Source of the DNA: an uncultured Candidatus Saccharibacteria bacterium
GTDB taxonomy: Bacteria > Patescibacteriota > Minisyncoccia > Phycocordibacterales > VMEP01
Direction of reading: 5' to 3'
Assembly: GCA_964579635.1 (NCBI GenBank)
Contig: CAZOFV010000005.1
Location: forward strand, 1-62,163
DNA: 62,163 nucleotides
Below are positions 3,064-54,186 of the stretch, piece by piece; positions within the stretch are counted from its first letter, which is position 1; each line of letters opens with the position of its first letter. The position numbers and the translations under genes were made by a program. The notes below the pieces were generated by a model. That model worked only from the letters and a program-made list of their open reading frames with translations. It made no database searches and was not told the DNA's origin.

Positions 3064-3159
3064 AACGCTTAATTTAACCATGGTTTCTTGCTATAATAGC
3101 CAAAGAAAGGGCCGTTTATTTGATTATTAGGGGTTAAAATAAAGAAGATCAAAAGTTAG

Positions 3160-4290
3160 ATGAAAATTTTATTTACAGGCGGAGGAAGTGGCGGTCATTT
3201 TTATCCTATTATTGCTATTGCTCAAAAGGTTAACGAGTTGATACAAAAAGAAAAAATCTTGGATGCCAAGTTGTATTTTATGTCTGATAGTCCATACAAC
3301 AAGGCTGTTCTTTATGAAAATGAATTACTATTCGTTTTTGCAAGCGCTGGTAAAGTCCGACGCTATTTTTCCTTACTTAATATTATCGATATTTTCAAAA
3401 CAGTAGCTGGTGTTGTTAAAGCATTTTTAAGTATGTACTTAATTTATCCAGATGTTGTGGTCGGGAAAGGTGGATATTCAAGTTTCCCTGCATTGATGGC
3501 TGCAAAGCTACTAAAAATTCCAGTTGTGATTCATGAATCGGACTCATATCCAGGAAGAACAAATATGTGGGCTGGAAAATTTGCTGAACGCATTGCTGTG
3601 TCGTACGAGGAAGCTGGGAAATATTTTCCAGCAGACAAGGTCGCTTTTACTGGACAACCAGTAAGAAAAGAAATCTTGATGCCACTACAAAGCGGTGCTT
3701 ATGAGTACTTAAAACTTTCACCAGATCTTCCAACAATTTTTATATTAGGTGGTTCTTCTGGCGCAAAAATAATAAACGAAACAATAATCGACATCCTTCC
3801 AGAACTTTTAGAAAAGTATCAAGTTATACATCAGGTTGGTGGAGAAAAGATGAAAGAGACCGAAGCGTTGGTTTCTGTTGTGTTGGGGGAAAATAATCCA
3901 CTTAGAGAAAGGTATCGAATGTTTGGATATTTAAACGCTCTTGCTTTACGTATGGCCGCTGGAACATCTCCGCTTATAGTCTCTCGTGGCGGTTCAACTA
4001 TTTTTGAAATTGCTGCCTGGGGTTTACCTTCGATAATAATTCCGATTAAAGATTCCAATGGAGATCATCAGCGAAAAAATGCTTTTAATTATGGTCGTTC
4101 CGGTGCTGGAGTTGTGATAGAAGAAATTAACTTAAGCCCACACCTACTACTCGCTGAGATTAATGGACTTATGGGAGATAAAGAGCGTAAAGAAAAAATG
4201 TCGAAAAACGCAAAAGATTTTTACAAAGCTGATGCAGCCGAAAAAATAGCAAGAGAGGTTTTAAAAATCGCCTTGCGTCACGAAGAATAA
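3160..4290 (+). CDS. murG: UDP-GlcNAc:lipid I N-acetylglucosamine transferase
   Basis: GGGSGGHFYP, GKGGYSS, HESD, GGSSGA, HQRKNA. Confidence 0.95.
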   Translation: MKILFTGGGSGGHFYPIIAIAQKVNELIQKEKILDAKLYFMSDSPYNKAVLYENELLFVFASAGKVRRYFSLLNIIDIFKTVAGVVKAFLSMYLIYPDVVVGKGGYSSFPALMAAKLLKIPVVIHESDSYPGRTNMWAGKFAERIAVSYEEAGKYFPADKVAFTGQPVRKEILMPLQSGAYEYLKLSPDLPTIFILGGSSGAKIINETIIDILPELLEKYQVIHQVGGEKMKETEALVSVVLGENNPLRERYRMFGYLNALALRMAAGTSPLIVSRGGSTIFEIAAWGLPSIIIPIKDSNGDHQRKNAFNYGRSGAGVVIEEINLSPHLLLAEINGLMGDKERKEKMSKNAKDFYKADAAEKIAREVLKIALRHEE

Positions 4291-4297
4291 AATAATA

Positions 4298-5644
4298 ATG
4301 AATTCACCAGTAAAACAGGTTAGGGTAAGAATTGCGCCGTCTCCAACGGGCTCTTTGCATATCGGTACAGCAAGGACAGCACTTTTTAACTACATTTTCG
4401 CGAAACAACATTCAGGTGTTTTTATTATTCGAATTGAGGATACCGACAAAGAAAGATCAAAAAAAGAATTTGAAGATAATATATTAGATGGGTTATCTTG
4501 GCTTAAGATTAAGCCAGATGAGTTTTATCGACAATCTGAAAGAACAGAAATATATAAAAAATATATAGAAAAACTAATTGCTGATGGTTCTGCTTATATT
4601 TCCAAAGAGGAGGCTGGTGAAGGAAAAAGAAGTGAAGTTATTCGTTTTAAAAATAAAAATAAAACCATAACTTTTAATGATCTGATACGCGGTCCTATAA
4701 CTTTTGAAACAAAAGAGCTTGGTGATTTTGTGATTGCGAAAGATACCGAAACGCCACTTTATCATCTAGCTGTCACAGTAGATGATTATGAGATGAAAAT
4801 TTCCCATGTTATTAGAGGGGAAGATCATATATCAAATACTTCAAGACAAATAATGCTACTTGAAGCGATCGGTGCAGAAATACCAACATATGCTCATTTA
4901 CCCTTAATTTTGGCTCCTGATAAGTCAAAATTATCAAAAAGGCATGGAGCAACAGCTGTAACAGAATATAAAGAAAAAGGTTTTTTACCAGAAGCTATAG
5001 TTAATTTTTTAGCAATACTTGGATGGTCTCCACAAAGTAGGGGAGAGGACGTAGATGTTTTAAACTTTGAGGAAATAGTTGAAAAATTTGAACTTGAAAA
5101 AGTCAGTAAAAGTGGGGCTGTTTTTGATATAAAAAAATTAGAATGGTTAAACAAACAATATATTAAAAAAATTCCACAAGAAGATTTAAAAAAAATTATT
5201 AAAGAAAAAGTTTTAACAAATGGCGCAACTATCTCTGAAGAAGAAAGATTAGATAGATCAATCCCTCTTATTGTTGAAAAAATATCAACATTAAATGAAG
5301 CTCATGTTATATGGAACGAAGAATTAGCTTTTCTTGAAAAAACGCCAGAATATAATGTTGAAAAACTTATTTGGAAAGAAGAAACGGCAGATAGCACAAG
5401 GGAAAAACTTTCCAAGGTATTAGAGATTATTAGGATGATTAATAGCGATGATTTTTCTGCAGAAAGAATAAAGGAATTAATTTTTCCGTTTGCCGATTCT
5501 GTTGGGCGAGGTGGTGTTTTGTGGCCAATGAGATTTTCTTTAACGGGACAGGAAAAATCACCAGATCCGTTTATGAGTGCCTATATTTTAGGAAAAGAAG
5601 AAACAATTTTACGTATTTCTAAGGCGATTGAACTTTTAAACTAA
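4298..5644 (+). CDS. gltX: Glutamate--tRNA ligase (short form, Zn-binding segment absent)
   Basis: RIAPSPTGSLHIGTAR, RIEDTD, IRGEDH, KLSKR. Confidence 0.95.
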   Translation: MNSPVKQVRVRIAPSPTGSLHIGTARTALFNYIFAKQHSGVFIIRIEDTDKERSKKEFEDNILDGLSWLKIKPDEFYRQSERTEIYKKYIEKLIADGSAYISKEEAGEGKRSEVIRFKNKNKTITFNDLIRGPITFETKELGDFVIAKDTETPLYHLAVTVDDYEMKISHVIRGEDHISNTSRQIMLLEAIGAEIPTYAHLPLILAPDKSKLSKRHGATAVTEYKEKGFLPEAIVNFLAILGWSPQSRGEDVDVLNFEEIVEKFELEKVSKSGAVFDIKKLEWLNKQYIKKIPQEDLKKIIKEKVLTNGATISEEERLDRSIPLIVEKISTLNEAHVIWNEELAFLEKTPEYNVEKLIWKEETADSTREKLSKVLEIIRMINSDDFSAERIKELIFPFADSVGRGGVLWPMRFSLTGQEKSPDPFMSAYILGKEETILRISKAIELLN

Positions 5645-5647
5645 TTA

Positions 5648-6979
5648 ATGGAAATATTTTTTAAAAAATTAACGACAGTAATCATCTTAAGCTTCTTTTA
5701 TGTGTTTTTAATTAACATAACGATTAGTCCTGTCTATGCGCAAACAGAAACGACAGAAGCACCAATAGCCACCGAAAAATCAGCCTATCAAATAGAGATT
5801 GATAAACGCAACGCGGAAATAGCGCAGCTAGAGAATGAAATAAAACAATATCAAGGACAGATTGAGATAACCGCAAAAGAAGCAGCTAGTTTAAAAAGTT
5901 TAATTAAACAATTAGATTTAGCTCGAGCAAAACTTGGAACTGATATCAAAGTTACTGAAAAGAAAATTTCTGTAACAAACACAACAATAAGTAGCTTGGG
6001 AGCTCAAATAGAGGACAAAAATACCAAAGTTTCCAATAGTTTAAGTACGATCGCAAAAAACATACGGACTGTTGCTGAAATTGAAGGGGAGTCGACAATA
6101 GAGATACTGCTTTCTAAATCAAATTTTTCTGAAGCTTGGATGGCTATAGATCAAACAGCACAATTTGAAAAAGCGGTAATAGAACATATTGAAGAATTAA
6201 GAGAAGTTAAACAAGGGCTTATTAAAGATAAACTAGCAACAGAAACAGCAAAAAAGAATCTAGTTAATTTAAAAAGTAATCTTGGTGACCAGAAGACTTT
6301 AGTTGAACAAAACAAGAGTGAAAAAAATAGAGTCTTAAAAGAGACAAATAATAAAGAAACAACTTATAAAAAATTGTTGGCCGAGCGTTTAGAAAAAAAA
6401 GAACAGTTAGAAACTGAAATTTTAGATTTTGAATCTAAGTTGAAAGAAGCCGTTGATGTCTCAAAACTCCCTTCTGTTGGTAAGGGGATATTAAGTTGGC
6501 CCGTAGCAATCGTCAGAATTACCCAATATTTTGGTAAAACATCTTTTGCTACTAAAAATCCGCAAGTTTATAACGGTATGGGCCACAACGGTATTGATTT
6601 TGGTATACCAACCGGAACACAAGTAAAATCTGCTGGTTCTGGTGTTGTTTATGGAACAGGAGATACTGATACTGCGTGCTACGGAGTTTCTTATGGTAAA
6701 TGGGTTCTTGTAAAACACGATAATGGTCTTGCTACTTTATATGCTCACTTATCTTTAATAAAAGTTTCAGCGGGGGATAATGTTCAAACAGGAGACGTTA
6801 TAGGGCTTAGTGGAAATACTGGGTACTCAACCGGTCCACACCTACACTTTACAGTTTATGCCGCTGATTCTGTCCATATATCAGGGCCAACTGAATATAA
6901 AAGTAGGGTCTGTAAAACTTACCTAAGAATGCCGCTTGCTCCAAGGGCTGGATATCTTAATCCCTTGTCTTATTTATAA
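5648..6979 (+). CDS. Secreted coiled-coil M23 peptidase (murein hydrolase/EnvC-like)
   Basis: Signal peptide, long coiled coil, HNGID, YAHL and STGPHLH M23 motifs. Confidence 0.85.
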   Translation: MEIFFKKLTTVIILSFFYVFLINITISPVYAQTETTEAPIATEKSAYQIEIDKRNAEIAQLENEIKQYQGQIEITAKEAASLKSLIKQLDLARAKLGTDIKVTEKKISVTNTTISSLGAQIEDKNTKVSNSLSTIAKNIRTVAEIEGESTIEILLSKSNFSEAWMAIDQTAQFEKAVIEHIEELREVKQGLIKDKLATETAKKNLVNLKSNLGDQKTLVEQNKSEKNRVLKETNNKETTYKKLLAERLEKKEQLETEILDFESKLKEAVDVSKLPSVGKGILSWPVAIVRITQYFGKTSFATKNPQVYNGMGHNGIDFGIPTGTQVKSAGSGVVYGTGDTDTACYGVSYGKWVLVKHDNGLATLYAHLSLIKVSAGDNVQTGDVIGLSGNTGYSTGPHLHFTVYAADSVHISGPTEYKSRVCKTYLRMPLAPRAGYLNPLSYL

Positions 6980-7014
6980 AAACTAATCATAATTTACAAG
7001 AAGATTAAAATATT

Positions 7015-7350
7015 ATGAATATAAAAAATAACGGTGGATTTTTAAAGTTAATTGTAATCATAGCAATCGGGATATTAATCTTAAGCGCTTTAAATATAAA
7101 TTTGCGCGATATAGTAAATTCGCCAGCATTCAAAAATAATATTACTTATGTATCAGATATCGCCAAGAACGTTTGGGATAATTACTTAAAAACTCCAGTT
7201 ACGTTGTTTTGGAATACGGTATTCAAAAATGTGATTATAGTGCCGTTTGCCCAAAATATGCACCAAATGATCAGTGGACAGGGAACATCGACCTTTTTCA
7301 GTCTAGTGCCACAATTTAGTATTCCGACGGCGACTACTACGGGCAACTAA
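7015..7350 (+). CDS. Small membrane-anchored hypothetical protein with prepilin-like N-terminus
   Basis: KNNGG-F followed by a hydrophobic helix; 111 aa downstream of the M23 gene. Confidence 0.65.
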   Translation: MNIKNNGGFLKLIVIIAIGILILSALNINLRDIVNSPAFKNNITYVSDIAKNVWDNYLKTPVTLFWNTVFKNVIIVPFAQNMHQMISGQGTSTFFSLVPQFSIPTATTTGN

Positions 7351-7779
7351 AAATTAATCTATTAAAAATTATTTTTTAGAAACAAATCTAGGGGATTATA
7401 TAGAATATTTAAGTTTATTTATTAATTGAGTGAATACAAAATATTTACTTACGGTTATATGGTTTAAGTAGGTTTGTTTAAGAGAAGGGCTCAACACAGC
7501 TTTCTGAGCCCACATGTCGTAAAAGGTATATTGTGCGACATCTATATAATCTAGCGCAAGCACTCCCCTTAAGAGTCTTAACCGCAAAGAATTAAAGACT
7601 GGAAACCATTTATTATTTATCTTTATATTATATCCCTGTGAACAAAAGATTTTATCTTTTTAAAATTTATAAGTTATTACTTAACTATTTAATTGCTCGG
7701 TATTTTTTTATGTCTTATTTGATAGACTAACCGCGCTATCCCCTTTTTGTGTCCATAGGACCTAATAGGTCGATTTGAT

Positions 7780-8856
7780 CTACTTTAGGCCCTCAACTGT
7801 AGGTGCTATAGTATTTGAGTTCATTACAGTAAATGTAATTCGTCCGATAAGTGTCCCGGAGGTAGTTTCTATAGAACATCTCCAAAGACCAGCTCTTAAA
7901 CTTGATTTTTTACTATAACCACGATAGCCTTCTTCGCGACCTCCTTCCATTGGGAAATTAATCACAGATGATAGCTTCCATTTTGATTCTATATTGTCGT
8001 AATATTCCCACTTATGGTTTATGTCAGTCGATAATTTTACTGGCGCAAATACAGAACTAAAACAGTACGTTGATTCGTTTAATTGTTTATTGAAAACTTT
8101 ACTTGTGTCATTAAAGAAATCAAACCATCTAGGTTCTTCGTATAAAACTCTATAGCTTCCCTTATTTGTTTTCTCAACAAGATGGTATACCCCAACCTCT
8201 TGAAGAGATAAAGGCACTGGCGGAATAATATTTAAAAAATATAAAATATTAAAAGAAACAAAAATTGTAAGTATTGAGAAAAATATTTTCTTTATTTTAG
8301 TAATAATTTCTTTGTTTGTAATAAAAATAATTCCTCCGAAAATTACAATTAAAACTAAGCTTGCTACTCCACTAATAACAAAAATAGTGTCTCCTATCTC
8401 TCCTAAAATCATTGGTATTACAAACGTTAGATAAAGTAAAGATAAAAAATACCAAACAGAAATATGAAAGTTTATTCGTGAGTATCGATCGCGAACAAAT
8501 TCATTTCCAATAACAAAGGCACCCAATATCAATAAAAAGAGTGAACTTCCTTCAAATGTACCGCTTTTCCCATATAGAAAAAGGAAACTACCGGCAATAT
8601 TACCAAAAGCAAACTGTATCATTGCAAGAAACATGATTGGTGTCACCTCCCCTTTCTTTTTATATAAAGATAAAAGCAGAATGCCAAAAGCAGATAGTAT
8701 TAAATAAAAAATAAGAACAAGATTTCCAAATAGTTGATCTGGTCGAGAAAATGTTAATGAATCCCAAATGAATCCTGAAAGTATCGAAACTACCCCAACA
8801 TAACGTTCGTATTTTTTGGCGTAGATGGTTAAAGTTGGTATTGGGCTTGGAAGCAT
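7780..8856 (-). CDS. Multi-TM protein with C-terminal DUF2914-like domain
   Basis: About 7 TM helices, then GGREEGYRGYSKK and GLWRCSIET, recalled as DUF2914-like. Confidence 0.65.
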   Translation of the reverse strand: MLPSPIPTLTIYAKKYERYVGVVSILSGFIWDSLTFSRPDQLFGNLVLIFYLILSAFGILLLSLYKKKGEVTPIMFLAMIQFAFGNIAGSFLFLYGKSGTFEGSSLFLLILGAFVIGNEFVRDRYSRINFHISVWYFLSLLYLTFVIPMILGEIGDTIFVISGVASLVLIVIFGGIIFITNKEIITKIKKIFFSILTIFVSFNILYFLNIIPPVPLSLQEVGVYHLVEKTNKGSYRVLYEEPRWFDFFNDTSKVFNKQLNESTYCFSSVFAPVKLSTDINHKWEYYDNIESKWKLSSVINFPMEGGREEGYRGYSKKSSLRAGLWRCSIETTSGTLIGRITFTVMNSNTIAPTVEGLK

Positions 8857-8885
8857 TTAATTATATTTTATTTTGGTAAGTTGGT

Positions 8886-9035
8886 TTATTGCCGACGTAG
8901 AGCGAGTGAAATGAGAAAGCAATCTTTCTCATTTCCGAGCCGAGGAGAGCAATATAAGGGATAAAATAACGCGCGGCTTGTCGCGCCAAAGCGTGAGCGA
9001 AGCGAACACGCTTTGGGTGCAGGGCTTGCCCTGCA
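8886..9035. repeat. Cluster of REP-like palindromes
   Basis: GAAATGAGAAAG/CTTTCTCATTTC; CCAAAGCGTG-AGCGAAGCGAA-CACGCTTTGG; TGCAGGGC-TT-GCCCTGCA. Confidence 0.7.
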
Positions 9036-11982: not shown

Positions 11983-13515
11983 CTATTTTGTTCTAACCAT
12001 ATCCCCTTCTTTCAAGCCTGAGAGTATTTCAACATCACCGTTTGAGCCCCTGATTCCTGTCGTAATAACAACCTCGCTAGTATTTTCTCCGTCAAAAAGA
12101 GAAACTGTTTTTACTTTATCTTTCGTGGTGATTGTACGGCCAGGAATAAATAAAACATTTTCTTTTCTTTCCCCGACTACGTCTGTGTTCGCGGTCATTC
12201 CAGATTTAATGCGTGGGTCGTTTTTGTCAAAATTGAGTGTTGTCTTATAGGTTGCAACTCCATCTATCATGGTTTCCGCTGGGTCTATTTTTGACACCGT
12301 TGCTGTAAAAATAACATCGCTACCGTAAGCATCTAGCGTGATTTCTGCTTTATTGCCGGTTTTTATTTTTGCGATATCAGATTCTGGCACATTTGCTTCA
12401 ATTTCATATTTAGAATCAGATATAACCGACATTAAAATAACCGATGGTGAAGCGATTTCTCCTATTTTAGAGTTTTGCTTTACAACAACACCGCTTATTG
12501 GAGAATAGACGACCGATTTTGCCAATTGCGATTGAAGGTTAGAGACATTTGCTTTAGATCCATCAAGCACCGCTTCTTGGGCTAAGATTTTTTCAGGCAC
12601 ACTCCCCGCTTGTTTTAACGCTAGTTTTGACTTGCTACTAATTAAACCTTCTGTAGCTGTTGTTAGCGAAGAGAGTGCAGATGTTACGTTTGTTCTACCT
12701 GTTGCAATAGCTGATTTATAACCATCAATAGTTGTTTGGGTGAGAGTCGAACTAACAGAAAGCCCGTTTACAGCAAACGCGATTTTATCAAGATAATTTT
12801 GTACTGAGATAAGATTTTTCTTTGCTTCATTTGAATACACAACAACGTCTGAAGATACAGAAATTTTAGAAACTGAAGAGTTCCAAGCAACTAACATCTC
12901 TTCCATAGCTAATCTACCTGCTTCAATATCACTTTTTAGTTGATTATCAGAAAGAACAAAATTTATCTGTGGATTTGCGCTCTTCGGGTTACTCATAAAC
13001 TGATCAACCTTATTTCGAATAGCATCATCAGCGTATACATAACTACTCTTAATATCATTAATAACATCACTAGTTGCGCTATCAACATCCACTTGAGATA
13101 CGTAGATATCTTCTGCACGAGTCCCACTTTTGAGTTCGTCTAATTTTGCCTGCTCTGCTTTTACTGTCGCCATTGCTCCATCAAGCTGAGCTAAGATATC
13201 AGCAGTGCTAATTGAGGCAAGCGCCTCACCAGCATAAACATGGTCTCCAACATTTCGATAAACAGCAACAATCTTCCCAATTTTTTCAAAAGACAAATCA
13301 ACTGTTTGTGCCGGCTTAACTTTTCCGGTGACAGAAACAACTTGAGAAACAGTCCCACGAGTAACTGTCATATAATCTACTTCAGGAGTTTTTGTAAAAC
13401 TTTGATAAGCGTAAAAACCGGTTATTACAACAACCAGAGATACAAATCCCGAAAGCCACGGTTTCTTAACACAAAAAGCTTTAATTGTTTCTAGGTATCG
13501 CAATAAAAAGGACAT
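11983..13515 (-). CDS. Membrane fusion/adaptor protein (MacA/HlyD-like)
   Basis: N-terminal TM, lipoyl halves (SPISGVV), long helical hairpin, IKSGMTA. Confidence 0.85.
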   Translation of the reverse strand: MSFLLRYLETIKAFCVKKPWLSGFVSLVVVITGFYAYQSFTKTPEVDYMTVTRGTVSQVVSVTGKVKPAQTVDLSFEKIGKIVAVYRNVGDHVYAGEALASISTADILAQLDGAMATVKAEQAKLDELKSGTRAEDIYVSQVDVDSATSDVINDIKSSYVYADDAIRNKVDQFMSNPKSANPQINFVLSDNQLKSDIEAGRLAMEEMLVAWNSSVSKISVSSDVVVYSNEAKKNLISVQNYLDKIAFAVNGLSVSSTLTQTTIDGYKSAIATGRTNVTSALSSLTTATEGLISSKSKLALKQAGSVPEKILAQEAVLDGSKANVSNLQSQLAKSVVYSPISGVVVKQNSKIGEIASPSVILMSVISDSKYEIEANVPESDIAKIKTGNKAEITLDAYGSDVIFTATVSKIDPAETMIDGVATYKTTLNFDKNDPRIKSGMTANTDVVGERKENVLFIPGRTITTKDKVKTVSLFDGENTSEVVITTGIRGSNGDVEILSGLKEGDMVRTK

Positions 13516-25773: not shown

Positions 25774-26010
25774 ATGACGACAGATGCTTTTCATCGGAAA
25801 GTTTCAGGAGAGGTCTTCGAAAAAATGACGTCAGCGAGGCTGACTTCGTTTAACGAAAGTGATTTTTACAAAGCCCTCTACCCTATTCTGAAGAAGGAAA
25901 ATGCTTTCGACGGAAGAACGTATCACGGGCGGAAAATCAGACCGCTCGTCGAGAAGATGTTCGTCGAGTTTCAACAGGAACAAGAACCAAGTAATTTCGT
26001 TCTGACCTGA
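25774..26010 (+). CDS. 78-aa ORFan
   Basis: AAAGGAGA 6 nt before ATG; own promoter and terminator. Confidence 0.75.
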   Translation: MTTDAFHRKVSGEVFEKMTSARLTSFNESDFYKALYPILKKENAFDGRTYHGRKIRPLVEKMFVEFQQEQEPSNFVLT

Positions 26011-26029
26011 AGCACGTGAATCACCATCA

Positions 26030-26060
26030 GGGCGCCCCAGTACGGGGCGCTTATTTTTTT
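26030..26060 (+). terminator. Intrinsic terminator
   Basis: GGGCGCCCC-AGTAC-GGGGCGCTT, then T7. Confidence 0.8.
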
Positions 26061-26079
26061 GCCTAATTTTTATATACAC

Positions 26080-26107
26080 AAAAACAAGGCCACCCGATAA
26101 GGGTGGC
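26080..26107 (-). terminator. Intrinsic terminator
   Basis: GCCACCC-TTATC-GGGTGGC, then T-rich tract on (-). Confidence 0.75.
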
Positions 26108-26135
26108 GAATGGAACGGCGCTGTTCATGTAGGTT

Positions 26136-26288
26136 TTACCAACTCTCGAAGGAGTCGGTTTCAACCGCAGCGGATACTTGCTGCGAATCGAAATCAGATT
26201 GAGCCAGCGTATCTTCCCCGAGAAGGTCGGCGATAAATTCCTCGACTGACAGGGTAAAGCGGTTCCAGAGATTGCTCAAAAACTTCAT
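26136..26288 (-). CDS. 50-aa acidic ORFan absent from the ORF track (MKFLSNLWNRFTLSVEEFIADLLGEDTLAQSDFDSQQVSAAVETDSFESW)
   Basis: GGAGG before ATG, GC-rich codons, downstream terminator. Confidence 0.7.
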   Translation of the reverse strand: MKFLSNLWNRFTLSVEEFIADLLGEDTLAQSDFDSQQVSAAVETDSFESW

Positions 26289-26709
26289 GGCTATTTCCTC
26301 CGTTTTTGTTGTACAGGGTTGCTTTATTTACAGTACCACATGAATTGAGGAATGGGAAGGGGGAGAAATACAATTATAATTAAATCTAGGTTGTTTGACT
26401 TTTAAATAACTCCGACGGATAATATTATTTATCCCCGCTAATTGCGAGGTTTATAAAAATAAGTTGTAAGCAATTATGGCAAACTTTTTGTATTCCCCGT
26501 GTTCTTTGGAGGAGAAGTTGGTGTAATTAAGTACAAACGATTCTTGGTGTTTACCAATCATCTTTGAGCTGTGCTAACGGGGTGTAAATGCTTGGCTAGG
26601 GCTAAGTAGTTCAGAAGTTATAGAATGATGTTATCAGACATTTTTGCCTAACGAGTTTCTAGTTTGAGAAATTTAGAAGGCAATGCAACTTTCTAAAGTA
26701 AAGCTAGCT

Positions 26710-26749
26710 GAACGGGCGTGGGAAGGCTGATACCTAACTACGCCCGTTC
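26710..26749. other. GC hairpin with structured 20-nt loop
   Basis: GAACGGGCGT/ACGCCCGTTC, inner AGG-CTGATA-CCT. Confidence 0.6.
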
Positions 26750-26818
26750 CTAATTATTTTAATTCTATAAACAACTAAGCCAACGTCTTAGAAACTAGTG
26801 AAAACAAATGCCACTGCT

Positions 26819-27097
26819 TTAGATATTTTTCTTCATCCAATCGCCAACATTAGTGGGAATATTATATGTTGCCCAATTAGTGTTAGTCGTATCAAGGACA
26901 ACCAGTTTATCATTAGTATCAAGAAAAACTTTCATATCGGCTCTTACTTCACTAACTGATTTATCTGTTTTAATAAACCAAACTGATTTTAATGGTTTTG
27001 CCCAATATGTATAAGATTTTATATGTTCAATTAAACGAGTATAGTCCTCACGTGTTTCTGGCCCTAATAAATCGTAGGAAATTATATATGTTTTCAT
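26819..27097 (-). CDS. Cas2/VapD-like ferredoxin-fold small protein (SinR-family-like)
   Basis: YIISYDL N-terminal motif; WAKPLKSVW; LDTNDKLVV. Confidence 0.65.
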   Translation of the reverse strand: MKTYIISYDLLGPETREDYTRLIEHIKSYTYWAKPLKSVWFIKTDKSVSEVRADMKVFLDTNDKLVVLDTTNTNWATYNIPTNVGDWMKKNI

Positions 27098-27099
27098 AA

Positions 27100-27381
27100 C
27101 TAATCTTCTTTATTTGATGCTTTGAAATAATAACCAATTATGAAACCAAGTGGTCCAGACAAAATACCAGAAACAGCCAAAAGCATATCTTTATAATCAC
27201 TTATTACAAAATTTTTATAAGTAGCTATGCCGAGAACAAAAGCAATTATAGATAGATAACCTATAACGTAGAAGAGGGCTATGTAACTTCGAGTCCCTTC
27301 TCTTTTTTCAGCTCGCCTAATTCCAGAAAGCCCAACCTCGTCGGGAAAAGCATCGATTTGCTGCGTAAAATTTTTTTTCAT
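27100..27381 (-). CDS. Small two-TM membrane protein
   Basis: Two hydrophobic helices ending GFIIGYYF; 2-nt gaps to both neighbours. Confidence 0.7.
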   Translation of the reverse strand: MKKNFTQQIDAFPDEVGLSGIRRAEKREGTRSYIALFYVIGYLSIIAFVLGIATYKNFVISDYKDMLLAVSGILSGPLGFIIGYYFKASNKED

Positions 27382-27383
27382 AA

Positions 27384-27626
27384 TTAAAGTTCTTTAACAT
27401 CAATAAAGACCTTTTTACCTTCTTTGTCTTCAATACAAAGTTTTCCATCACCATAATCTCTTGCGACTTCTATAACTTTCATCCCCTTAATTAAAACTTC
27501 GCCAAGTTTATCTTCTGGTACAGACAAATACACACCTAATTCTCTTAGTTTTTTTAAAGCCCCATTGCCAAAACTAACATCGAATCTATCTGGCTGTAAA
27601 TTATTGTTTGTTAAAGATTCTTCCAT
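27384..27626 (-). CDS. Putative ribbon-helix-helix (CopG-like) DNA-binding protein
   Basis: Alternating beta strand RFDVSF, then two helices and a short beta tail. Confidence 0.5.
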   Translation of the reverse strand: MEESLTNNNLQPDRFDVSFGNGALKKLRELGVYLSVPEDKLGEVLIKGMKVIEVARDYGDGKLCIEDKEGKKVFIDVKEL

Positions 27627-27837
27627 ATCAGTATTTCTATTAGTATTTCTTGTTATAACAAATTTATAAATTGAAGCTTAAGTTTAACAGTATTATAGTT
27701 CAAATCCAAGAATTTCTAATTTTTAAGATTTTCTGGATTATATTAATATTTTAATTTCATCACTAAGGCGCCAGCTTATATATGACACATTATATAATGA
27801 TTTCCTGTTACTCCAAAGAGAATCAAAATACGCTTCG

Positions 27838-27890
27838 GTCACGAGTTACTAAGCATTTTGGCACCATTGGCGCCAAAATACAAAGTACTC
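27838..27890. repeat. 53-bp palindromic direct repeat, copy 1
   Basis: 51/53 identical to 28497-28549. Confidence 0.9.
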
Positions 27891-27952
27891 ATGAATATAC
27901 AAACTAAGTTGTATATTCCCGCATTCATAGAAATATGAGGAATTTCCTGATA

Positions 27953-28447
27953 TTACTCTTTTTCTTTGGCGTCTAGTGTCCACACACTTTTATAGGTCTT
28001 GTAAGTCCACACTGTAATGCGATCACCTTTTAAGCTACCGCCAAACTCCGATATCCATTTGTTTCCAAACTCATCAACCAAATAAAGTTTTATATCAAAT
28101 TTATTATTCTCAATATTATTAATATTGGGGGTTTCTATCCAATAATAAGCAGAGTCTCCAGTTCCAGTGGCCAAAAGTCTTGCTCGCTCAAAATAACGGT
28201 TATTCCCTGGTATTTCAAAACCATAGAGATATAGGTTAACCTTACCAACATTTAGCAGTTTTAATATATTTTCATCAGCTGGAACAACTGCGACACCTAC
28301 ATAATCTTGCAGAAGTCTTAGCCTTTCGTTTATTTGATTTGTTTTAACCCCGATAAACAGTGCTCCCAAAAACGTTGCGACAAGAATAACTACCTGCAAA
28401 CAACCCAATACAACCTGCCATATTTCAAATAAATTCATATTTTTCAT
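27953..28447 (-). CDS. Hypothetical protein: N-terminal TM plus beta-rich domain
   Basis: 164-aa ORF between the two repeats; TATAAT abuts the first ATG, so the start may be 28438. Confidence 0.75.
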   Translation of the reverse strand: MKNMNLFEIWQVVLGCLQVVILVATFLGALFIGVKTNQINERLRLLQDYVGVAVVPADENILKLLNVGKVNLYLYGFEIPGNNRYFERARLLATGTGDSAYYWIETPNINNIENNKFDIKLYLVDEFGNKWISEFGGSLKGDRITVWTYKTYKSVWTLDAKEKE

Positions 28448-28496
28448 TATAATTATTTAGTGATTATCGTGATAGTTATTTAAAGGTGATTCATCT

Positions 28497-28549
28497 GTCA
28501 CGAGTTACTAAGTATTTTGGCACCATTGGTGCCAAAATACAAAGTACTC
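28497..28549. repeat. 53-bp palindromic direct repeat, copy 2
   Basis: GTATTTTGGCACC-ATT-GGTGCCAAAATAC core. Confidence 0.9.
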
Positions 28550-28728
28550 GCAAGTTACGCCATATTGAAGGCTACGCCTACATAATTTATGTGGTCCACA
28601 ATAATTCATTTTCCGTCGAAAATGAATTTTCCAGACCCGGACTCAGCCATTTTTTCTGCTGAAAAAATACGCTTCCGTCTTCATAAATTAGTAAGTAAGC
28701 AAAGAAGTTTCCTTACTTACTTAATTTA

Positions 28729-28800
28729 TGACCCTACAGGGAATCGAACCCTGCTTCCAGCCTTGAGAAGGCTGTGTCCTAACCGATAGACGATAGGGCC
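28729..28800 (-). tRNA. tRNA-Glu(CTC), CCA not encoded
   Basis: GGCCCTA/TAGGGTC acceptor, CAGCC-TTCTCAA-GGCTG anticodon arm, GGTTCGATTCC T arm. Confidence 0.95.
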
Positions 28801-28916
28801 TTGTTTATTTTTATCTAAATACTAATTCCACCCATTGTTTACTCGCCATGCGAGTAAGCCAAACTAAACACACATAGCTTATATTTTTTCCCCCTTTCTA
28901 TCAAGTTTAAAATAAT

Positions 28917-28938
28917 AAAGCCCGCGAATGCGGGCTTT
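28917..28938 (-). terminator. Intrinsic terminator AAAGCCCGCGAATGCGGGCTTT
   Basis: Identical to 29226-29247. Confidence 0.8.
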
Positions 28939-28949
28939 ATGGCTCGGTA

Positions 28950-29144
28950 TCAACCGAGGGAACAGATCTTCTCTACAACGGCCCAAAGATCTTTGATCAT
29001 TCCCCAAGCATCTCCGTAAAACAAATAGGACATCAACAGAACCTGGGTTACGACAAGAAAAACCAACAAGGCTTTGAGACGTTTGCCGGTTCTCCTGCTT
29101 TCAGCCCACATGGCTTCTGTTTCAGGACATGTCTGTGTTTTCAT
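28950..29144 (-). CDS. 64-aa single-TM ORFan (paralog of 29264-29467)
   Basis: Own promoter TTGACT-17-TAAAGT (29203-29175) and terminator. Confidence 0.75.
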   Translation of the reverse strand: MKTQTCPETEAMWAESRRTGKRLKALLVFLVVTQVLLMSYLFYGDAWGMIKDLWAVVEKICSLG

Positions 29145-29225
29145 TTTTTCCCCAATAAAATGTTTACTCCTGTAACTTTACAACATTAAGTTATGTTAGT
29201 CAATATTTTCTTAGTTAAAAATAAC

Positions 29226-29247
29226 AAAGCCCGCGAATGCGGGCTTT
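29226..29247 (-). terminator. Intrinsic terminator AAAGCCCGCGAATGCGGGCTTT
   Basis: Identical to 28917-28938. Confidence 0.8.
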
Positions 29248-29263
29248 CGTTTTGACTAAGTGG

Positions 29264-29467
29264 TCAACGGAGGAAAATTATTTCCCAGATGTCGTTGTAA
29301 GTTGAGACGATCTTTACGACGATTTCGAATACACCTCCGTAAACCAAAAAAACCCCGAACAAAATCTGCGTAGCCACAATGGAACATAACGAAATCTTGA
29401 AATACTTCTCCTCTTCCTTGATTTTCGTTCTCAGGGTTTCCGTGTTTGAATATACACCCTCTTCCAT
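29264..29467 (-). CDS. 67-aa single-TM ORFan (paralog of 28950-29144)
   Basis: Own promoter TTGACG-17-TAGAGT (29565-29537); shared VxTQxLxxxxLxYG. Confidence 0.75.
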   Translation of the reverse strand: MEEGVYSNTETLRTKIKEEEKYFKISLCSIVATQILFGVFLVYGGVFEIVVKIVSTYNDIWEIIFLR

Positions 29468-29568
29468 AATTTTCTCCCCAAAATACCTACGTCACTTGGG
29501 CTAATTTCGAACAACTAAAACTTGTTTGCTTACACAACTCTACAACACTAAATATTACACGTCAACTT

Positions 29569-30879
29569 CTATCTAGACTTCCATTCCTCTTCTTGCCTAA
29601 CAAGAAGTTCTTTAGCTTTTTCTGGATTTGCCATCACTTCAAGAACAGCGCGCTCCATTCTCATTCCTTGTGAACCTTTAATTAACGCTATGTCCCCTTC
29701 TTTTATTTTTTGTTCCAAAAATTTACCAGCTTCTTTAGAATCCTCAAATTGAAAAATTTTCTTTTCTGATAATCCGGCGATGAGCGCGCCTTCGGCGATG
29801 TGTCTTGCGCGAATTCCAACGGTAATGACCATATCACAAATCTTTCCTGCAATTTCACCCATTCGACGATGCTCCGTGCTTGCGTGTTTACCGAGCTCAA
29901 GCATGTCTCCCAAAACTGCAATCTTCTTCCCTTTCCCTTCTAATTTGGAAAGTGTTTCAAGCGCAGACTCCATCGCAATTGGCGATGCGTTGTACGTATC
30001 ATCAACAATAATGCTTCCCTTCACTCCTTTAATTAGTCTTAATCGCCCCGGAGCCATTTCGTATGTGTGAAGCGCTTCTGCTGCGCGAACCATGTTCAAT
30101 TCACAAGCATCGGCAACAGCAAGAGCAGAAAGCGCCGCGTAAATATGATTCATCCCAAAACCACCAGAGAGATGTACTGGAATACTTGATCCTTTTGAAT
30201 CAACGCGAAATGTTATACCAAGTGGATATCCATCATTTTCATCTTTTTTGTATTCGATATTTTCATATGAAGCGATGAGTGTCGCATCTTTACTAAAACC
30301 ATAACTCTCTGTTCGTGCTTTTATTTTTTCTTTAAGAGACATCACGTCCTCGTCATCTGCGTTCAAAATAATCGTTCCGTTTTTTGACACAGCGTGCGCA
30401 AGCTCCCCTTTTTCGGCCTTAACAGCTTCAGGCGATTCAAAAAACTCAACGTGTGCTGGAACCTTACTCAAGCGAGTAATTATTGCTATATCTGGTTTAA
30501 TCCAAGAAGCTGTTTTTTTAATATCTCCCGGGCGGTCGGCACCAACCTCAAGAACAAGCCATTCTGGATATGGTTTTCTTTGAATCAAAAGAGAAATACC
30601 GTCTAAAAAATTCTTAATCCACATAAGTGGATTACTCCAAGCGTTTGGGCAACCAATCACAGTAAGAGGGATTCCAATTTCACCATTAAAACTCTTCTCA
30701 CTTTTTCTAGTTTTGTAAAAATGAGACAAAACTGCATAAACCGCATCTTTAGAAGAAGTCTTCCCAACAGTGCCGGTAATCGCCACAATTCGTGGCTTAT
30801 ATTTTTTTAAAATAAGACGCGCTTCTAATGTTAGAACCGCAATTATTGTTTTCTTTAAAGTTGTTTTTAAAAACTGCAT
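29569..30879 (-). CDS. murF: UDP-MurNAc-tripeptide--D-Ala-D-Ala ligase
   Basis: ITGTVGKTS, FNGEIG, DDTYNASP, LGDMLELG, IKGSQG. Confidence 0.92.
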   Translation of the reverse strand: MQFLKTTLKKTIIAVLTLEARLILKKYKPRIVAITGTVGKTSSKDAVYAVLSHFYKTRKSEKSFNGEIGIPLTVIGCPNAWSNPLMWIKNFLDGISLLIQRKPYPEWLVLEVGADRPGDIKKTASWIKPDIAIITRLSKVPAHVEFFESPEAVKAEKGELAHAVSKNGTIILNADDEDVMSLKEKIKARTESYGFSKDATLIASYENIEYKKDENDGYPLGITFRVDSKGSSIPVHLSGGFGMNHIYAALSALAVADACELNMVRAAEALHTYEMAPGRLRLIKGVKGSIIVDDTYNASPIAMESALETLSKLEGKGKKIAVLGDMLELGKHASTEHRRMGEIAGKICDMVITVGIRARHIAEGALIAGLSEKKIFQFEDSKEAGKFLEQKIKEGDIALIKGSQGMRMERAVLEVMANPEKAKELLVRQEEEWKSR

Positions 30880-52952: not shown

Positions 52953-53378
52953 TTAAAGCACTGAAAAAATTTCATCAACAACCTCTTTTATTTCCGACTC
53001 AGACATAACCCTCCTTTCGTTTCCATAATGGTCCAAGTCACCGATTCTAACTTCAGGAATAACATGACTATGTAGATGTGGAATTGATTTTGAAGTATTA
53101 TCTCCTTCTCGTTCTAATACAGACATATTTTTATATCCCAACTTTTTAAAAATCTTAAGCGCTTCTTCCTGTAAAAAATCCATATCTAGAACCTCTTTAT
53201 CTGTAAGCCCGAGAATAATCTCTTCGTGCCTAAATGGCACAATCAATAAATGGTGTTTATGATATGGTGCTAACGCATAAGTTAAGTAGGCAGTTTCTGT
53301 CTTTAAAAGATGTCTACTGTCTCCCCCGTCACAAAATGGACACTTGTCTAAATTTTTAAGAAAATCTTTATATAGCAT
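52953..53378 (-). CDS. HIT family protein
   Basis: CPFC, HLLIVP, PHLHSH histidine triad. Confidence 0.88.
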   Translation of the reverse strand: MLYKDFLKNLDKCPFCDGGDSRHLLKTETAYLTYALAPYHKHHLLIVPFRHEEIILGLTDKEVLDMDFLQEEALKIFKKLGYKNMSVLEREGDNTSKSIPHLHSHVIPEVRIGDLDHYGNERRVMSESEIKEVVDEIFSVL

Positions 53379-53483
53379 GAAATATAGTATATATCATGAT
53401 AAGTAACAGGTGAACTTTTCATTTTCTGTTTTTTTTGTTAGCATACTAGCCACATTCCGGAGTAGTTGAAATGCGAATAAATA

Positions 53484-53557
53484 AAGCATTTCAAAGGCGG
53501 AGGCTGACGAGCCGAGCCGGGGTCGCAGAATTTTTCAGCAGAAAAATATCTGTGACC
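53484..53557 (+). repeat. 74-bp repeat, identical to 53976-54049
   Basis: Exact duplicate; GGTCGCAGA-ATTTTT-CAGCAG-AAAAAT-A-TCTGTGACC hairpin. Confidence 0.9.
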
Positions 53558-53591
53558 TGCGGTCCCGCTGAGATACTCCTGATATGTATAT

Positions 53592-53666
53592 TCCGGAGTA
53601 GCTCAGCGGTAGAGCGGTCGCCTGTTAAGCGATTGGTCACAGGTTCGAATCCTGTCTCCGGAGCCA
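53592..53666 (+). tRNA. tRNA-Asn(GTT), CCA encoded
   Basis: TCCGGAG/CTCCGGA acceptor, GTCGC-CTGTTAA-GCGAT, GGTTCGAATCC. Confidence 0.96.
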
Positions 53667-53714
53667 GAAATAGTTAGCCCTGCTGCGAAAGCAATGGGGC
53701 TTTACTATTTCCTT

Positions 53715-54097
53715 CGGAGACAGGATTCGAAAGATTTTGCGGGCACCTGTTTAGCAAAACAGGTCGCAAAATCAGGGTCGAGAAATTTTTCTGCTCGACG
53801 GAGCGGAAAAATGTTCTTGACCGAACCTGTCTCCGGAGCTTGTAAAAACTTTAGACCCCCCTTATAGGGGGCTTTAGTTTTTTAAGCTCCGGAGAGCAAG
53901 CAACTAGATTTGCTTGCGTACAGGATTCGAAAGCCGGAGCGCGACGGCGCGAGGCGGGCTTAATTGCGATAAGTGAAGCATTTCAAAGGCGGAGGCTGAC
54001 GAGCCGAGCCGGGGTCGCAGAATTTTTCAGCAGAAAAATATCTGTGACCGCGCAAAATCTCAGTAGAGATTTATGCGTGACCAATCCTGTCTTCGGA
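53715..54097. repeat. Array of inverted and direct tRNA-Asn 3'-end copies with nested hairpins
   Basis: Inverted 53715-53731, direct 53826-53839, split inverted 53886-53931, direct 54083-54097. Confidence 0.85.
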
Positions 54098-54186
54098 ACT
54101 TCGAAAGTACTATCTTTACCCCCTTTTTTTCATAATAGATTTTATGAAAACTTTAAATATCACAATATATTTGAGATAATAAAACT

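What the first reader, a model, noticed from the sequence alone, without database searches (positions are those of the whole stretch)
27825..28553. A gene bracketed by two 53-bp hairpin repeats whose mismatches all favour folding of one strand
Seen: direct repeats 659 bp apart (51/53 identical) flank a single 164-aa gene with its own -10. Each folds as 8 bp, one bulged base, 3 bp, a 2x2 mismatch, 13 bp and a 3-nt loop. All five non-Watson-Crick stem positions across the two copies are G-T on (-) and A-C on (+). Known: integron attC and HUH substrates work as folded single strands with extrahelical bases. There are no RYYYAAC/GTTRRRY cores here, and the favoured strand is the coding strand. Inference: a non-integron gene-cassette system, or RNA processing signals. 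No recombinase is in the window.
Basis: partly seen in the sequence, partly recalled or inferred. Interest (0 to 1): 0.75.

Follow-up and report, generated by a model that had tools for sequence, protein, structure and literature searches.

The report
Duplicated tRNA-trailer hairpin brackets inserted gene
Two near-identical hairpins do bracket one small gene. They are copies of a conserved stem-loop that ends the structured trailer of a tRNA-Glu gene in an uncultured groundwater bacterium, and the pair most likely marks a one-gene insertion into a strain-variable island, not a proven new cassette system.

Summary
Two direct copies of a 53-56 nt stem-loop (51/53 identical, 659 bp apart) flank one 164-aa gene. 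Three independent assemblies show the same arrangement.

The window is core chromosome of a Paceibacteria (candidate phyla radiation, CPR) bacterium. The upstream copy closes a highly structured trailer of tRNA-Glu(CUC).

A close relative (run X13) has one hairpin in that contig. Its flanks match the outer flank of each window copy. From the foot of the hairpin (...GTGAC|) its sequence is unrelated for 2.9 kb.

So the hairpin marks the edge of a strain-variable island, and the gene plus a second hairpin was inserted at its foot.

The stem base (GGGGUCGC...GUGACC, bulged A, conserved G.U) is kept by compensatory changes in distant lineages, always on the tRNA-sense strand. The same module also brackets tRNA-Asn elsewhere in the window, next to partial tRNA copies.

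Homologues of the gene sit behind tRNA-Glu in other genomes. In one genome the homologue is a canonical integron cassette.

There are no attC cores and no recombinase in 62 kb, and this hairpin variant has only two copies.

Best reading: an attL/attR-like scar of a single-crossover insertion in a tRNA-anchored island. The enzyme is unknown.

The parts
28494..28554 (-). Hairpin copy 2 (hp2). This is the resident copy and the last stem-loop of the tRNA-Glu trailer. The repeat proper is 28494-28549; the stem continues into the non-repeated flank up to 28553.
   Evidence: It is identical (0 mismatches) to the single hairpin in a contig of run X11, and close to the one in run X13.
27835..27895 (-). 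Hairpin copy 1 (hp1), 62 nt downstream of the gene's stop codon. It differs from hp2 by two A-to-G changes on the - strand, each turning an A-U pair into G.U. Its non-repeated 5' flank (UCAU) still pairs with GUGA.
27953..28447 (-). Gene for a 164-aa protein (161 aa from the second ATG): an N-terminal transmembrane helix followed by a beta-sandwich domain. Function unknown.
   Evidence: The AlphaFold model has pLDDT 76.7, with helix 6-47 followed by eight strands. No PDB fold match had E below 0.06. Pfam gave only a sub-threshold DUF5643 hit.
28448..28496 (-). The 5' part of the insert. It has a TATAAT at 28453-28448 next to the start codon. The new junction GTGAC|AGATGAATC lies at 28497/28496.
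   Evidence: Sequence. Homologues also have a TATAAT 8-20 nt before their ATG. The consensus scan did not call it.
27893..27918 (-). A small perfect 10-bp hairpin (GAATATACAA/TTGTATATTC) between the stop codon and hp1. It overlaps the outer stem of hp1, so the two are alternative pairings.
   Evidence: Read from the sequence.
27825..27840 (-). GACCGAAGCGTATTTT immediately 3' of hp1. Its first part, CGAAGCGTA, is the ancestral flank of the single hairpin in relatives.
   Evidence: (D7).
28664..28679 (-). GACGGAAGCGTATTTT immediately 3' of the first trailer hairpin. It matches the tail after hp1 at 15 of 16 positions.
28564..28689 (-). Conserved structured domain 'Y' of the tRNA-Glu trailer. It holds the hairpin UUUUUUCAGCAGAAAAAA, the motif GCUGAGUCCGGGUC and a second stem-loop closed by GGGUC/GGACC. 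The same domain occurs in many groundwater contigs.
   Evidence: It is 93% identical in L022, where murF DNA is only 77% identical. Other metagenome contigs differ by 1-5 mismatches over 86-124 nt, and their similarity ends sharply at both sides. There are two compensatory C-G to U-A changes against L022. The whole trailer folds with z = -9.1.
28685..28726 (-). First trailer hairpin, directly after tRNA-Glu (terminator-like).
   Evidence: (I6).
28729..28800 (-). tRNA-Glu(CUC), on the same strand as the hairpins and the gene.
26364..28496 (.). Strain-variable island. In the run X13 relative this stretch is replaced by 2927 nt of unrelated DNA. One boundary is the foot of hp2.
   Evidence: joint 26363->28497, 'skips 2133, 2927 letters between'.
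26820..27627 (-). A three-gene block (80, 93 and 92 aa) inside the island. Elsewhere it sits behind N6/N4 methyltransferase and HNH genes.
   Evidence: 84% nucleotide identity confined to the three genes.
53477..53557 (+). Related module D1a, upstream of tRNA-Asn: ...CCGAGCCGGGGTCGC-AGAATTTTTCAGCAGAAAAATATCT-GTGACC.
53969..54049 (+). Related module D1b, 98% identical to D1a and 492 bp away. It is followed by a hairpin ending in GTGACC and then by a partial copy of the tRNA-Asn 3' end (54083-54097).
   Evidence: This module is high-copy in groundwater metagenomes.

Best explanation
The two repeats are copies of one sense-strand stem-loop. That stem-loop belongs to the structured trailer of tRNA-Glu(CUC) in a Paceibacteria (CPR) chromosome.

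A close relative has one copy at the end of the trailer. It sits exactly where conserved sequence stops and a strain-variable island of small genes begins.

In this genome a 606-bp segment with one gene, followed by a second copy of the stem-loop, lies precisely at the 3' foot of the resident stem-loop (...GTGAC|). The simplest origin is a single-crossover (Campbell-type) recombination between the resident stem-loop and a like stem-loop on an incoming circular DNA. That leaves the stem-loop on both sides, like attL and attR.

The stem-loop is one apex variant of a wider tRNA-linked module family. The family has a conserved closing stem GGGGUCGC...GUGACC, a bulged A and a conserved G.U. In this window and in relatives it lies next to partial tRNA 3'-end copies, which are the usual footprints of tRNA-targeting integrative elements.

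Shown:
- the duplication;
- the single-copy junction in relatives;
- the island boundary at the hairpin foot;
- strand-specific structural conservation;
- mobility of the gene family;
- absence of attC cores and of any recombinase in the window.

Inferred:
- the crossover mechanism;
- that an integrase encoded elsewhere acted in trans;
- that the stem-loop also works in RNA, in 3'-end formation or protection of the tRNA-Glu trailer and now of the gene's mRNA.
For: 1. The two-copy arrangement is real and reproducible.

2. An unoccupied site exists. The 3928-nt contig of run X13 matches the window on both sides of the island: 89% identity over 26045-26363 and about 97% over 28497-28645, where its hairpin lies. 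On one side that hairpin is joined to Y, like hp2. On the other it is joined to CGAAGCGTA, like hp1. Window 26364-28496 is replaced there by 2927 nt of other DNA. A run X11 contig has a hairpin identical to hp2 followed by the same CGAAGCGTA. The gene has essentially no depth in X13 at 80% identity or more.

3. The structure is conserved on the sense strand. In 8 of 8 instances sense folds better than antisense. The basal 9-bp stem is 88.9% paired against 77.9% in shuffles, and 5 of 9 pairs change on both sides. A G.U at pair 5-18 is present in 7 of 10 instances. The bulged A recurs in L026, L022 and the tRNA-Asn module.

4. The same site is duplicated independently elsewhere. Relative to L024, L026 has a 153-bp insert flanked by TTAGTRAYTTGTGACC... 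repeats. At tRNA-Asn in this window, 81-nt modules (98% identical) lie 492 bp apart, and GTGACC/TGACC ends abut partial tRNA-Asn copies. L022 and L011 have GTGAC| followed by a partial tRNA-Glu 3' end.

5. Homologues at 52-53% identity (L024-L026) lie 325-435 nt downstream of a tRNA-Glu. Those at 67-70% (L011, L014) lie behind a sequence that reads like a tRNA-Glu 3' end. The downstream neighbours differ in each case.

6. The homologue P0005 is flanked by 148-nt attC sites with GCCTAAC/GTTAGGC cores, among toxin-antitoxin cassettes.

7. Published tRNA-anchored islands show the same footprints: partial tRNAs, remnants, and newer arrivals lying next to the tRNA (bioRxiv 10.1101/2020.12.28.424599).
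Against: - No recombinase domain was found in the ORFs of 120 aa or more that were scanned across the 62 kb. None was seen in the relatives' loci with precomputed Pfam.
- The hp pair itself is not a partial tRNA copy.
- The contigs of the source runs show no circle junction or deletion variant. Contigs drop rare variants, so this is weak evidence.
- The direction of the event cannot be proven. The relative could have lost the gene by deletion between two hairpins.
- The X13 contig could be read only through its matches and 30-nt loose ends, so its 2.9-kb alternative content is unknown.
- The covariation count used stems that I extracted by hand, which biases it towards the structure.
- hp1 differs from hp2 in both arms. 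The crossover must therefore lie in the last ~15 nt, or the differences arose after the event.
Confidence: 0.5

Rival explanations
1. The function is at the RNA level only, and nothing is mobile. The stem-loops are 3'-end, processing or stability signals. hp2 ends the tRNA-Glu trailer transcript and hp1 ends the gene's mRNA. Their near-identity would come from local copying or gene conversion of terminator-like hairpins, and the gene would be an old resident downstream of tRNA-Glu.
For: - The structure and its G.U pairs are conserved on the sense strand. The trailer is strongly structured, with z = -9.1.
- Both the first trailer hairpin and hp1 are followed by the same tail, GAC(S)GAAGCGUAUUUU.
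- The neighbourhood holds a second case. Two paralogous genes of 64 and 67 aa, only 23% identical, are each followed by a terminator that is 33/35 identical.
- The gene family lies downstream of tRNA-Glu in several distant lineages.
Against: - No U-tract follows within 0-2 nt of either hairpin, and the terminator scan does not call them.
- The likely -10 of the gene lies downstream of hp2, so hp2 would not be part of the mRNA.
- The gene is absent from the X13 relative at 80% identity or more, while the flanks are 89-97% identical. The sequence diverges exactly at the hairpin foot.
- This reading does not explain the partial tRNA copies abutting GTGACC ends.
- No RNA data are available.
Confidence: 0.2
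2. This is a dedicated cassette system that is not an integron. The GGGGUCGC...GUGACC stem-loops would be recombination sites used as folded single strands. They have a conserved 7-8 bp inverted core at the base, an extrahelical A and a variable apex, like attC. A recombinase encoded elsewhere would insert and excise gene-plus-hairpin units at tRNA-linked platforms.
For: - The architecture parallels attC: a conserved base, a bulged base, a variable apex and strand-biased folding. The real attC of L018 shows the same strand bias, -56.7 against -47.5 kcal/mol.
- All junctions fall just after GTGAC(C).
- An unoccupied site exists.
- Module pairs bracket other DNA at tRNA-Asn and in L026.
- The module family is high-copy in groundwater CPR communities.
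- The gene family is also carried by true integrons.
Against: - Only one gene-bearing unit was seen. There is no array of different genes separated by these sites.
- No recombinase was found in the window or in the relatives' loci.
- The modules at tRNA-Glu and tRNA-Asn lie on opposite replication strands, each co-oriented with its tRNA. This fits co-transcription as well as it fits recombination.
- No excision products were seen.
Confidence: 0.13
3. The hairpins belong to a dispersed palindromic repeat family of the REP/REPIN, MITE or IS200/IS605-derived type. Such repeats are moved in trans by an HUH or other transposase. On this reading the two copies simply landed, or were copied, on either side of the gene.
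For: - The related D1 module reaches depth 587-804 in run X13, against about 44 for that genome. It breaks the assemblies into contigs of 200 nt or less, as within-genome repeats do.
- The hairpins carry a bulged base on one strand and lie in direct orientation, as the ends of IS200/IS605 elements do.
Against: - This hairpin variant has no further copy in the source metagenomes and appears once in the relative's locus contig.
- It sits at an orthologous position behind tRNA-Glu in lineages whose proteins are about 52% identical, which points to long residence rather than transposition.
- All family members seen lie at tRNA loci.
- There is no GTAG head and no TnpA or RAYT gene in the window.
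- This reading still needs a separate event to bring in the gene.
Confidence: 0.07

Closest known systems
tRNA-anchored additive genomic islands built by integrative elements, for example the tycheposon islands of Prochlorococcus (bioRxiv 10.1101/2020.12.28.424599)
   Same: - A variable island starts next to a tRNA gene.
- Inserted DNA is flanked by direct repeats.
- Partial tRNA 3' copies and degraded remnants accumulate (L022, L011 and the tRNA-Asn locus).
- Small cargo genes of unknown function are present, and an unoccupied site exists in a relative.
   Different: - The repeat around this gene is a trailer stem-loop, not a partial tRNA.
- No integrase or replication module is present.
- The unit is a single 606-bp gene.
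- The repeat keeps a strand-specific secondary structure through covariation.
Integron gene cassettes and attC sites, including CALINs (attC clusters without an integrase)
   Same: - The unit is a gene followed by an imperfect palindrome with an extrahelical base and a variable apex, and one strand folds better.
- The repeats are direct and the junction lies at the 3' foot of the site.
- A homologue of the gene is a genuine cassette (L017).
   Different: - There are no RYYYAAC/GTTRRRY cores and no IntI.
- Only two sites are present.
- The favoured strand is the coding, tRNA-sense strand.
- The site is anchored to a tRNA trailer and is conserved at an orthologous locus.
REP/BIME and Correia-type small palindromic repeats
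   Same: These are short extragenic palindromes that are co-transcribed, fold in RNA and sit at the 3' ends of genes. The wider module family here is multi-copy.
   Different: This variant is single-copy per genome apart from the duplication found here. The family is restricted to tRNA loci, lacks the REP GTAG head, and no RAYT gene was found.
IS200/IS605 ends and the non-autonomous elements derived from them (PATEs)
   Same: Similar subterminal hairpins lie on the same strand at both ends, each with an unpaired base.
   Different: The hairpins are twice as long as in those elements. There is no TnpA or TnpB gene, the hairpins are not dispersed, and one copy is an old resident of the tRNA trailer.

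Membership tests
Integron cassette / attC | R'' (RYYYAAC) and R' (GTTRRRY) core sites at the two ends of the palindrome | tested here: not met
   The scan of both strands of the window found no such pair at the hairpins, only four weak AT-rich chance pairs elsewhere. The control locus L018 gave GCCTAAC/GTTAGGC. The hairpin ends read GAGTAC...GTAACTC.
Integron cassette / attC | Imperfect palindrome with extrahelical base(s), one strand folding better | tested here: met
   a bulged A on the - strand, and -33.6/-32.6 kcal/mol on (-) against -19.8/-28.3 on (+).
Integron cassette / attC | Integron integrase (IntI) nearby, or an array of several attC sites separating different ORFs | tested here: not met
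   No recombinase Pfam domain in the ORFs of 120 aa or more that were scanned. There are only two sites around one ORF.
tRNA-targeting integrative element / additive island | The insert lies next to the 3' side of a tRNA gene, flanked by direct repeats, with an unoccupied site in relatives | tested here: met
   tRNA-Glu lies 282 nt upstream on the same strand.
tRNA-targeting integrative element / additive island | The flanking repeats are the tRNA 3' end (att core) | tested here: not met
   No partial tRNA-Glu copy in the window with up to 3 mismatches. The feature is met at related places: L022 12792-12809, L011 157-172 and window 53823-53837 / 54083-54097.
tRNA-targeting integrative element / additive island | An integrase gene in the element | tested here: not met
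   The insert holds one non-recombinase ORF. There is none elsewhere in the window.
Intrinsic (rho-independent) terminator | A G+C-rich stem followed within 0-2 nt by a U-tract | tested here: not met
   The scan did not call either hairpin, although it did call the first trailer hairpin and the GCCCGC terminators nearby. The U-run after hp1 starts 9-10 nt after the stem.
REP / REPIN | Tens to hundreds of extragenic copies per genome, a conserved GTAG head and a RAYT gene | tested here: not met
   No further copy of the hp variant in the source metagenomes and few runs hold it at all. There is no GTAG head and no RAYT-like ORF in the window. The related D1 module is multi-copy, so the result is inconclusive at family level.
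IS200/IS605 or a derived non-autonomous element | A Y1 HUH TnpA (or TnpB) gene, and dispersed copies with LE/RE hairpins | tested here: not met
   No such domains in the window. The hairpin is conserved at an orthologous locus in L026. Whether the rest of the genome encodes a TnpA cannot be tested here.
Any Rfam RNA family | A covariance-model match | tested here: not met
   Only tRNAs reach the gathering threshold. Nothing meaningful appears at E <= 5 over 26000-30000 or 53300-54300.

The most novel reading that the evidence does not exclude
The GGGGUCGC...GUGACC stem-loops would be the recombination sites of a previously undescribed cassette system in CPR bacteria. It would be tRNA-anchored and attC-like. 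The sites would be recognised as folded single strands through their conserved base, extrahelical A and variable apex. A recombinase encoded elsewhere would insert and excise gene-plus-hairpin units at the trailers of tRNA genes. The 659-bp unit in this window would then be one live cassette.
Probability: 0.13. Interest if true: 0.85.

Novelty: new variant of a known kind. Interest (0 to 1): 0.5.

Why it matters
CPR bacteria have tiny genomes, and how they exchange genes is poorly known.

This locus shows where a strain-variable island starts. It starts at the foot of a conserved, strand-specific stem-loop in a tRNA trailer. The same stem-loop has been duplicated around an imported gene.

The stem-loop belongs to a module family that matches no Rfam family, is abundant in groundwater CPR communities and has so far been seen only beside tRNA genes.

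If the modules prove to be recombination sites, they would define a new way of building gene islands in these organisms. If they are RNA signals, they are a new conserved element of tRNA transcripts. The public data already contain the genomes needed to test both readings.

Tried and rejected
Searches that found nothing useful:
- Exact-pattern scans for the hairpin gave nothing in genome contigs (46-nt pattern) or in metagenome contigs and viral contigs (39-nt pattern).
- The short-core scan of genome-contig hit only unrelated GC-rich palindromes in Actinomycetota.
- No RNA-seq run holds the locus.
- The gene has no homologue in viral contigs, GenBank phages or PLSDB plasmids. The locus DNA gave only a 48-nt chance hit in phages.

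Interpretations rejected:
- Chance or assembly artefact.
- Canonical attC.
- Intrinsic terminator.
- Known RNA families.
- A hammerhead-like reading of CUGACGAG in the tRNA-Asn module. The box is not kept in the other copies, and Rfam finds nothing.
- SRP, 5S, tmRNA and RNase P readings of the trailer. The word resemblances came only from memory, and neither Rfam nor ARAGORN supports them.
- A diversity-generating retroelement template/variable-repeat pair. Both differences between the copies are A/G, but the repeat lies outside any ORF and there is no reverse transcriptase.
- A Xer/dif-type module. The apex palindrome is not conserved between lineages; only the base of the stem is.

Weakened:
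- The 16-nt repeat GACSGAAGCGTATTTT as a target-site duplication of an 839-bp element. Only 12 nt are exact. The relatives show that CGAAGCGTA is simply the old flank of the hairpin.
Full report
**Observation**

The window holds two direct copies of a 53-56 nt sequence at 27835-27890 and 28494-28549. They are 51/53 identical (95% over 56 nt) and 659 bp apart. No shuffled sequence gave a match. Relaxed searches of the whole 62 kb found no third copy.

Energies are -33.6 and -32.6 kcal/mol on (-) against -19.8 and -28.3 on (+). Every non-Watson-Crick stem pair is G.U on the - strand (read from the folds).

The only sizeable ORF between the copies is 27953-28447 (-), 164 aa, or 161 aa from the second ATG. 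Contigs from three separate runs span both copies without a single difference.

**Setting**

The Pfam hits on most of the other large ORFs are housekeeping: the mraZ-mraW-PBP-murF, murG and ftsW cell-wall genes, MreB/MreC, aminoacyl-tRNA synthetases, DnaB, RecR and ribosomal proteins. None is a recombinase. Homologues of MurF are labelled Paceibacterota, Parcubacteria or Patescibacteria. The source runs are rock and groundwater metagenomes.

On the - strand the order is:
- murF;
- two small genes for membrane proteins;
- tRNA-Glu(CUC) at 28800-28729;
- a 232-nt non-coding trailer ending in hairpin copy 2;
- the gene;
- hairpin copy 1;
- three further small genes.

The trailer is very strongly structured, with an MFE of -96.9 kcal/mol and z = -9.1.

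**What relatives show**

Run X13 holds a close relative. Its 3928-nt contig matches window 26045-26363 (35 other letters in 319) and 28497-28645 (about 97%). Between the two it carries 2927 nt of unrelated DNA in place of window 26364-28496.

That contig has a single hairpin. On one side the hairpin is joined to the trailer domain Y, as hp2 is. On the other side it is joined to CGAAGCGTA..., the sequence that follows hp1 in the window. A short contig of run X11 has a hairpin identical to hp2 followed by the same CGAAGCGTA. At 80% identity or more the 164-aa gene has essentially no depth in X13.

Two things follow. First, the foot of the hairpin (...GTGAC|) is where conserved sequence ends and a strain-variable island begins. 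Second, the window differs from the single-hairpin state by exactly one unit of 659 bp, made of promoter, gene and hairpin. It does not fix the direction of the event, which could be a gain here or a loss there.

The rest of the island is also modular. The block of 80-, 93- and 92-aa genes is 84% identical to blocks that elsewhere sit behind methyltransferase and HNH genes, and the similarity stops at the block's ends.

**The hairpin is an old, structured, sense-strand element**

In more distant genomes the same place behind tRNA-Glu carries a hairpin with a different apex but the same base. The base is 5' GGGGUCGC(GA..) paired with (..UY)GUGACC 3', often with a bulged A on the 3' strand.

In all eight instances the sense strand folds better than the antisense. 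I cut out the basal 9 bp of ten instances by hand and counted the pairs:
- 88.9% of cells pair, against 77.9% in shuffles;
- 5 of 9 pairs change on both sides;
- a G.U pair is kept in 7 of 10 instances.

The hand extraction biases this count towards the structure. The compensatory changes are nevertheless plain in the sequences.

In L020, whose MurF is 96% identical, the 5' strand of the hairpin is the 3' end of the tRNA itself: GGGTCAC...GTGACCC.

The trailer domain Y (28564-28689) is 93% identical in L022, where murF DNA is only 77% identical. It occurs nearly unchanged in many groundwater contigs, with similarity ending sharply at both sides. It shows two C-G to U-A compensatory changes. 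Rfam has no family for any of this.

**Links to recombination**

The same module occurs twice at the other tRNA of the window. Copies of 81 nt, 98% identical and 492 bp apart, bracket tRNA-Asn. That locus also holds direct and inverted partial copies of the tRNA-Asn 3' end. The direct ones come straight after a GTGACC or TGACC module end.

A hairpin there, GCGCAAAATCT...AGATTTATGCGTGACC, recurs in L022 joined to a fragment of tRNA-Glu instead. L022 and L011 both have GTGAC| followed by a partial tRNA-Glu 3' end. Relative to L024, L026 carries a 153-bp insert flanked by a duplicated TTAGTRAYTTGTGACC... segment.

Partial tRNA copies, remnants and repeated insertion next to the tRNA are the known footprints of tRNA-targeting integrative elements (10.1101/2020.12.28.424599).

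The tRNA-Asn module is also high-copy in groundwater communities, with depth 587-804 against about 44 for the X13 genome. The apex variant of this finding is different. It has no extra copy in the source runs, appears once in the X13 contig, and few runs hold it at all.

**The gene**

The protein has one long N-terminal helix and a beta-sandwich domain (pLDDT 76.7). It has no significant fold match and no family assignment.

Only a handful of homologues exist. Those at 52-53% identity (L024-L026) lie 325-435 nt downstream of a tRNA-Glu. Those at 67-70% (L011, L014) lie behind a sequence that reads like a tRNA-Glu 3' end. The downstream neighbours differ in each case.

One homologue, P0005 at 52% identity, is a textbook integron cassette. 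It is flanked by 148-nt attC sites with GCCTAAC/GTTAGGC cores. Its first bases are complementary to its own R'' box. Its neighbours are toxin-antitoxin cassettes. The gene is therefore habitually mobile.

**Interpretation**

The best-supported reading is a single-crossover insertion of a circular gene-plus-hairpin DNA into the resident trailer hairpin. It left the hairpin on both sides, in an island anchored to tRNA-Glu.

hp2 equals the relatives' hairpin. hp1 carries two A-to-G changes, one in each arm, and both keep pairing as G.U. This fits a crossover in the last ~15 nt (TTAGTAACTCGTGAC), which is also the best-conserved part across lineages. With only two changes, the strand argument from these two copies alone is weak (p about 0.06 by my estimate). 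The strong evidence is the cross-lineage covariation.

The enzyme is unknown, and no recombinase lies in the window. The stem-loop probably also acts in RNA. Its structure is kept on the tRNA-sense strand at both tRNA loci, which lie on opposite replication strands. It is not a canonical terminator.

The rivals are:
- a purely RNA-level explanation with local copying of terminator-like hairpins. The nearly identical terminators behind two 23%-identical paralogues nearby lend it some weight;
- a true new attC-like cassette system;
- a REP- or IS200/IS605-like dispersed repeat.

**Verdict**

The 'cassette' idea is partly right for this one unit. A dedicated system is not shown.

The thing is best filed as a new variant of tRNA-anchored island building, in which a conserved structured trailer module serves as the junction. 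The module family itself and domain Y match no family in Rfam 15. They deserve a proper survey.

Noticed in passing
window 53456-54100 (+), around tRNA-Asn (53592-53666): This is a dense patchwork. Two 81-nt modules, 98% identical, lie at 53477-53557 and 53969-54049. Direct partial copies of the tRNA-Asn 3' end lie at 53823-53837 and 54083-54097. Inverted copies lie at 53712-53731 and 53920-53933, and there is a partial 5' copy at 53456-53470. The ORFs that follow (54187-56711) have no Pfam hits. It looks like a second tRNA-anchored island with repeated integration and inversion scars.
   Followed up: partly
window 28564-28689 (-): Trailer domain Y is about 125 nt long. It is 95-99% conserved in contigs of several unrelated groundwater metagenomes, with similarity ending sharply at both sides and differing flanks. 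It shows two compensatory changes against L022. It is a candidate new small structured RNA or a mobile non-coding module, and it matches no Rfam family.
   Followed up: partly
window 28904-28938 and 29213-29247: Two canonical terminators (AAAGCCCGCGAATGCGGGCTTT plus 13 upstream nt) are 33/35 identical. Each follows a small membrane-protein gene (64 and 67 aa), and those proteins are only 23% identical. The hairpins are far better conserved than the genes they follow.
   Followed up: partly
window 26820-27627 (-): A three-gene block (80, 93 and 92 aa; the last gives a weak Cas2-like Pfam hit) is 84% identical to blocks in other CPR contigs. There it follows an N6/N4 DNA methyltransferase and an HNH nuclease near dnaA-dnaN. 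The similarity ends exactly at the block's ends, so it is a discrete transferable module, possibly linked to defence.
   Followed up: partly
L017 1-1801 (ENA k141_677509); also L016, L018, L019: This is a fragment of an integron cassette array. Its 148-153 nt attC sites have GCCTAAC/GTTAGGC cores. It carries a homologue of the 164-aa gene, a 169-aa unknown gene, and DUF2442/DUF4160 and BrnT/BrnA cassettes.
   Followed up: yes
L022 12493-12960 (JGI Ga0376277_0004347): tRNA-Glu is followed by a trailer that is 93% identical to the window's. Then come a decayed and an intact partial tRNA-Glu 3' copy (12792-12809). Last comes a second trailer copy, 71% identical, with its own GGGGUCGC...GUGACC hairpin. 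This is the pattern expected if an element carrying a foreign tRNA-Glu trailer had integrated into the tRNA.
   Followed up: partly
window 1-9000: Cumulative GC skew peaks near 6-8 kb and falls steadily afterwards. A replication origin or terminus probably lies near the start of the window.
   Followed up: no
window 25777-26044: The 78-aa ORF at 25774-26010 (+) is missing from the run X13 relative (joint 25776->26045, skips 268). This is another small strain-specific indel, close to the island.
   Followed up: no
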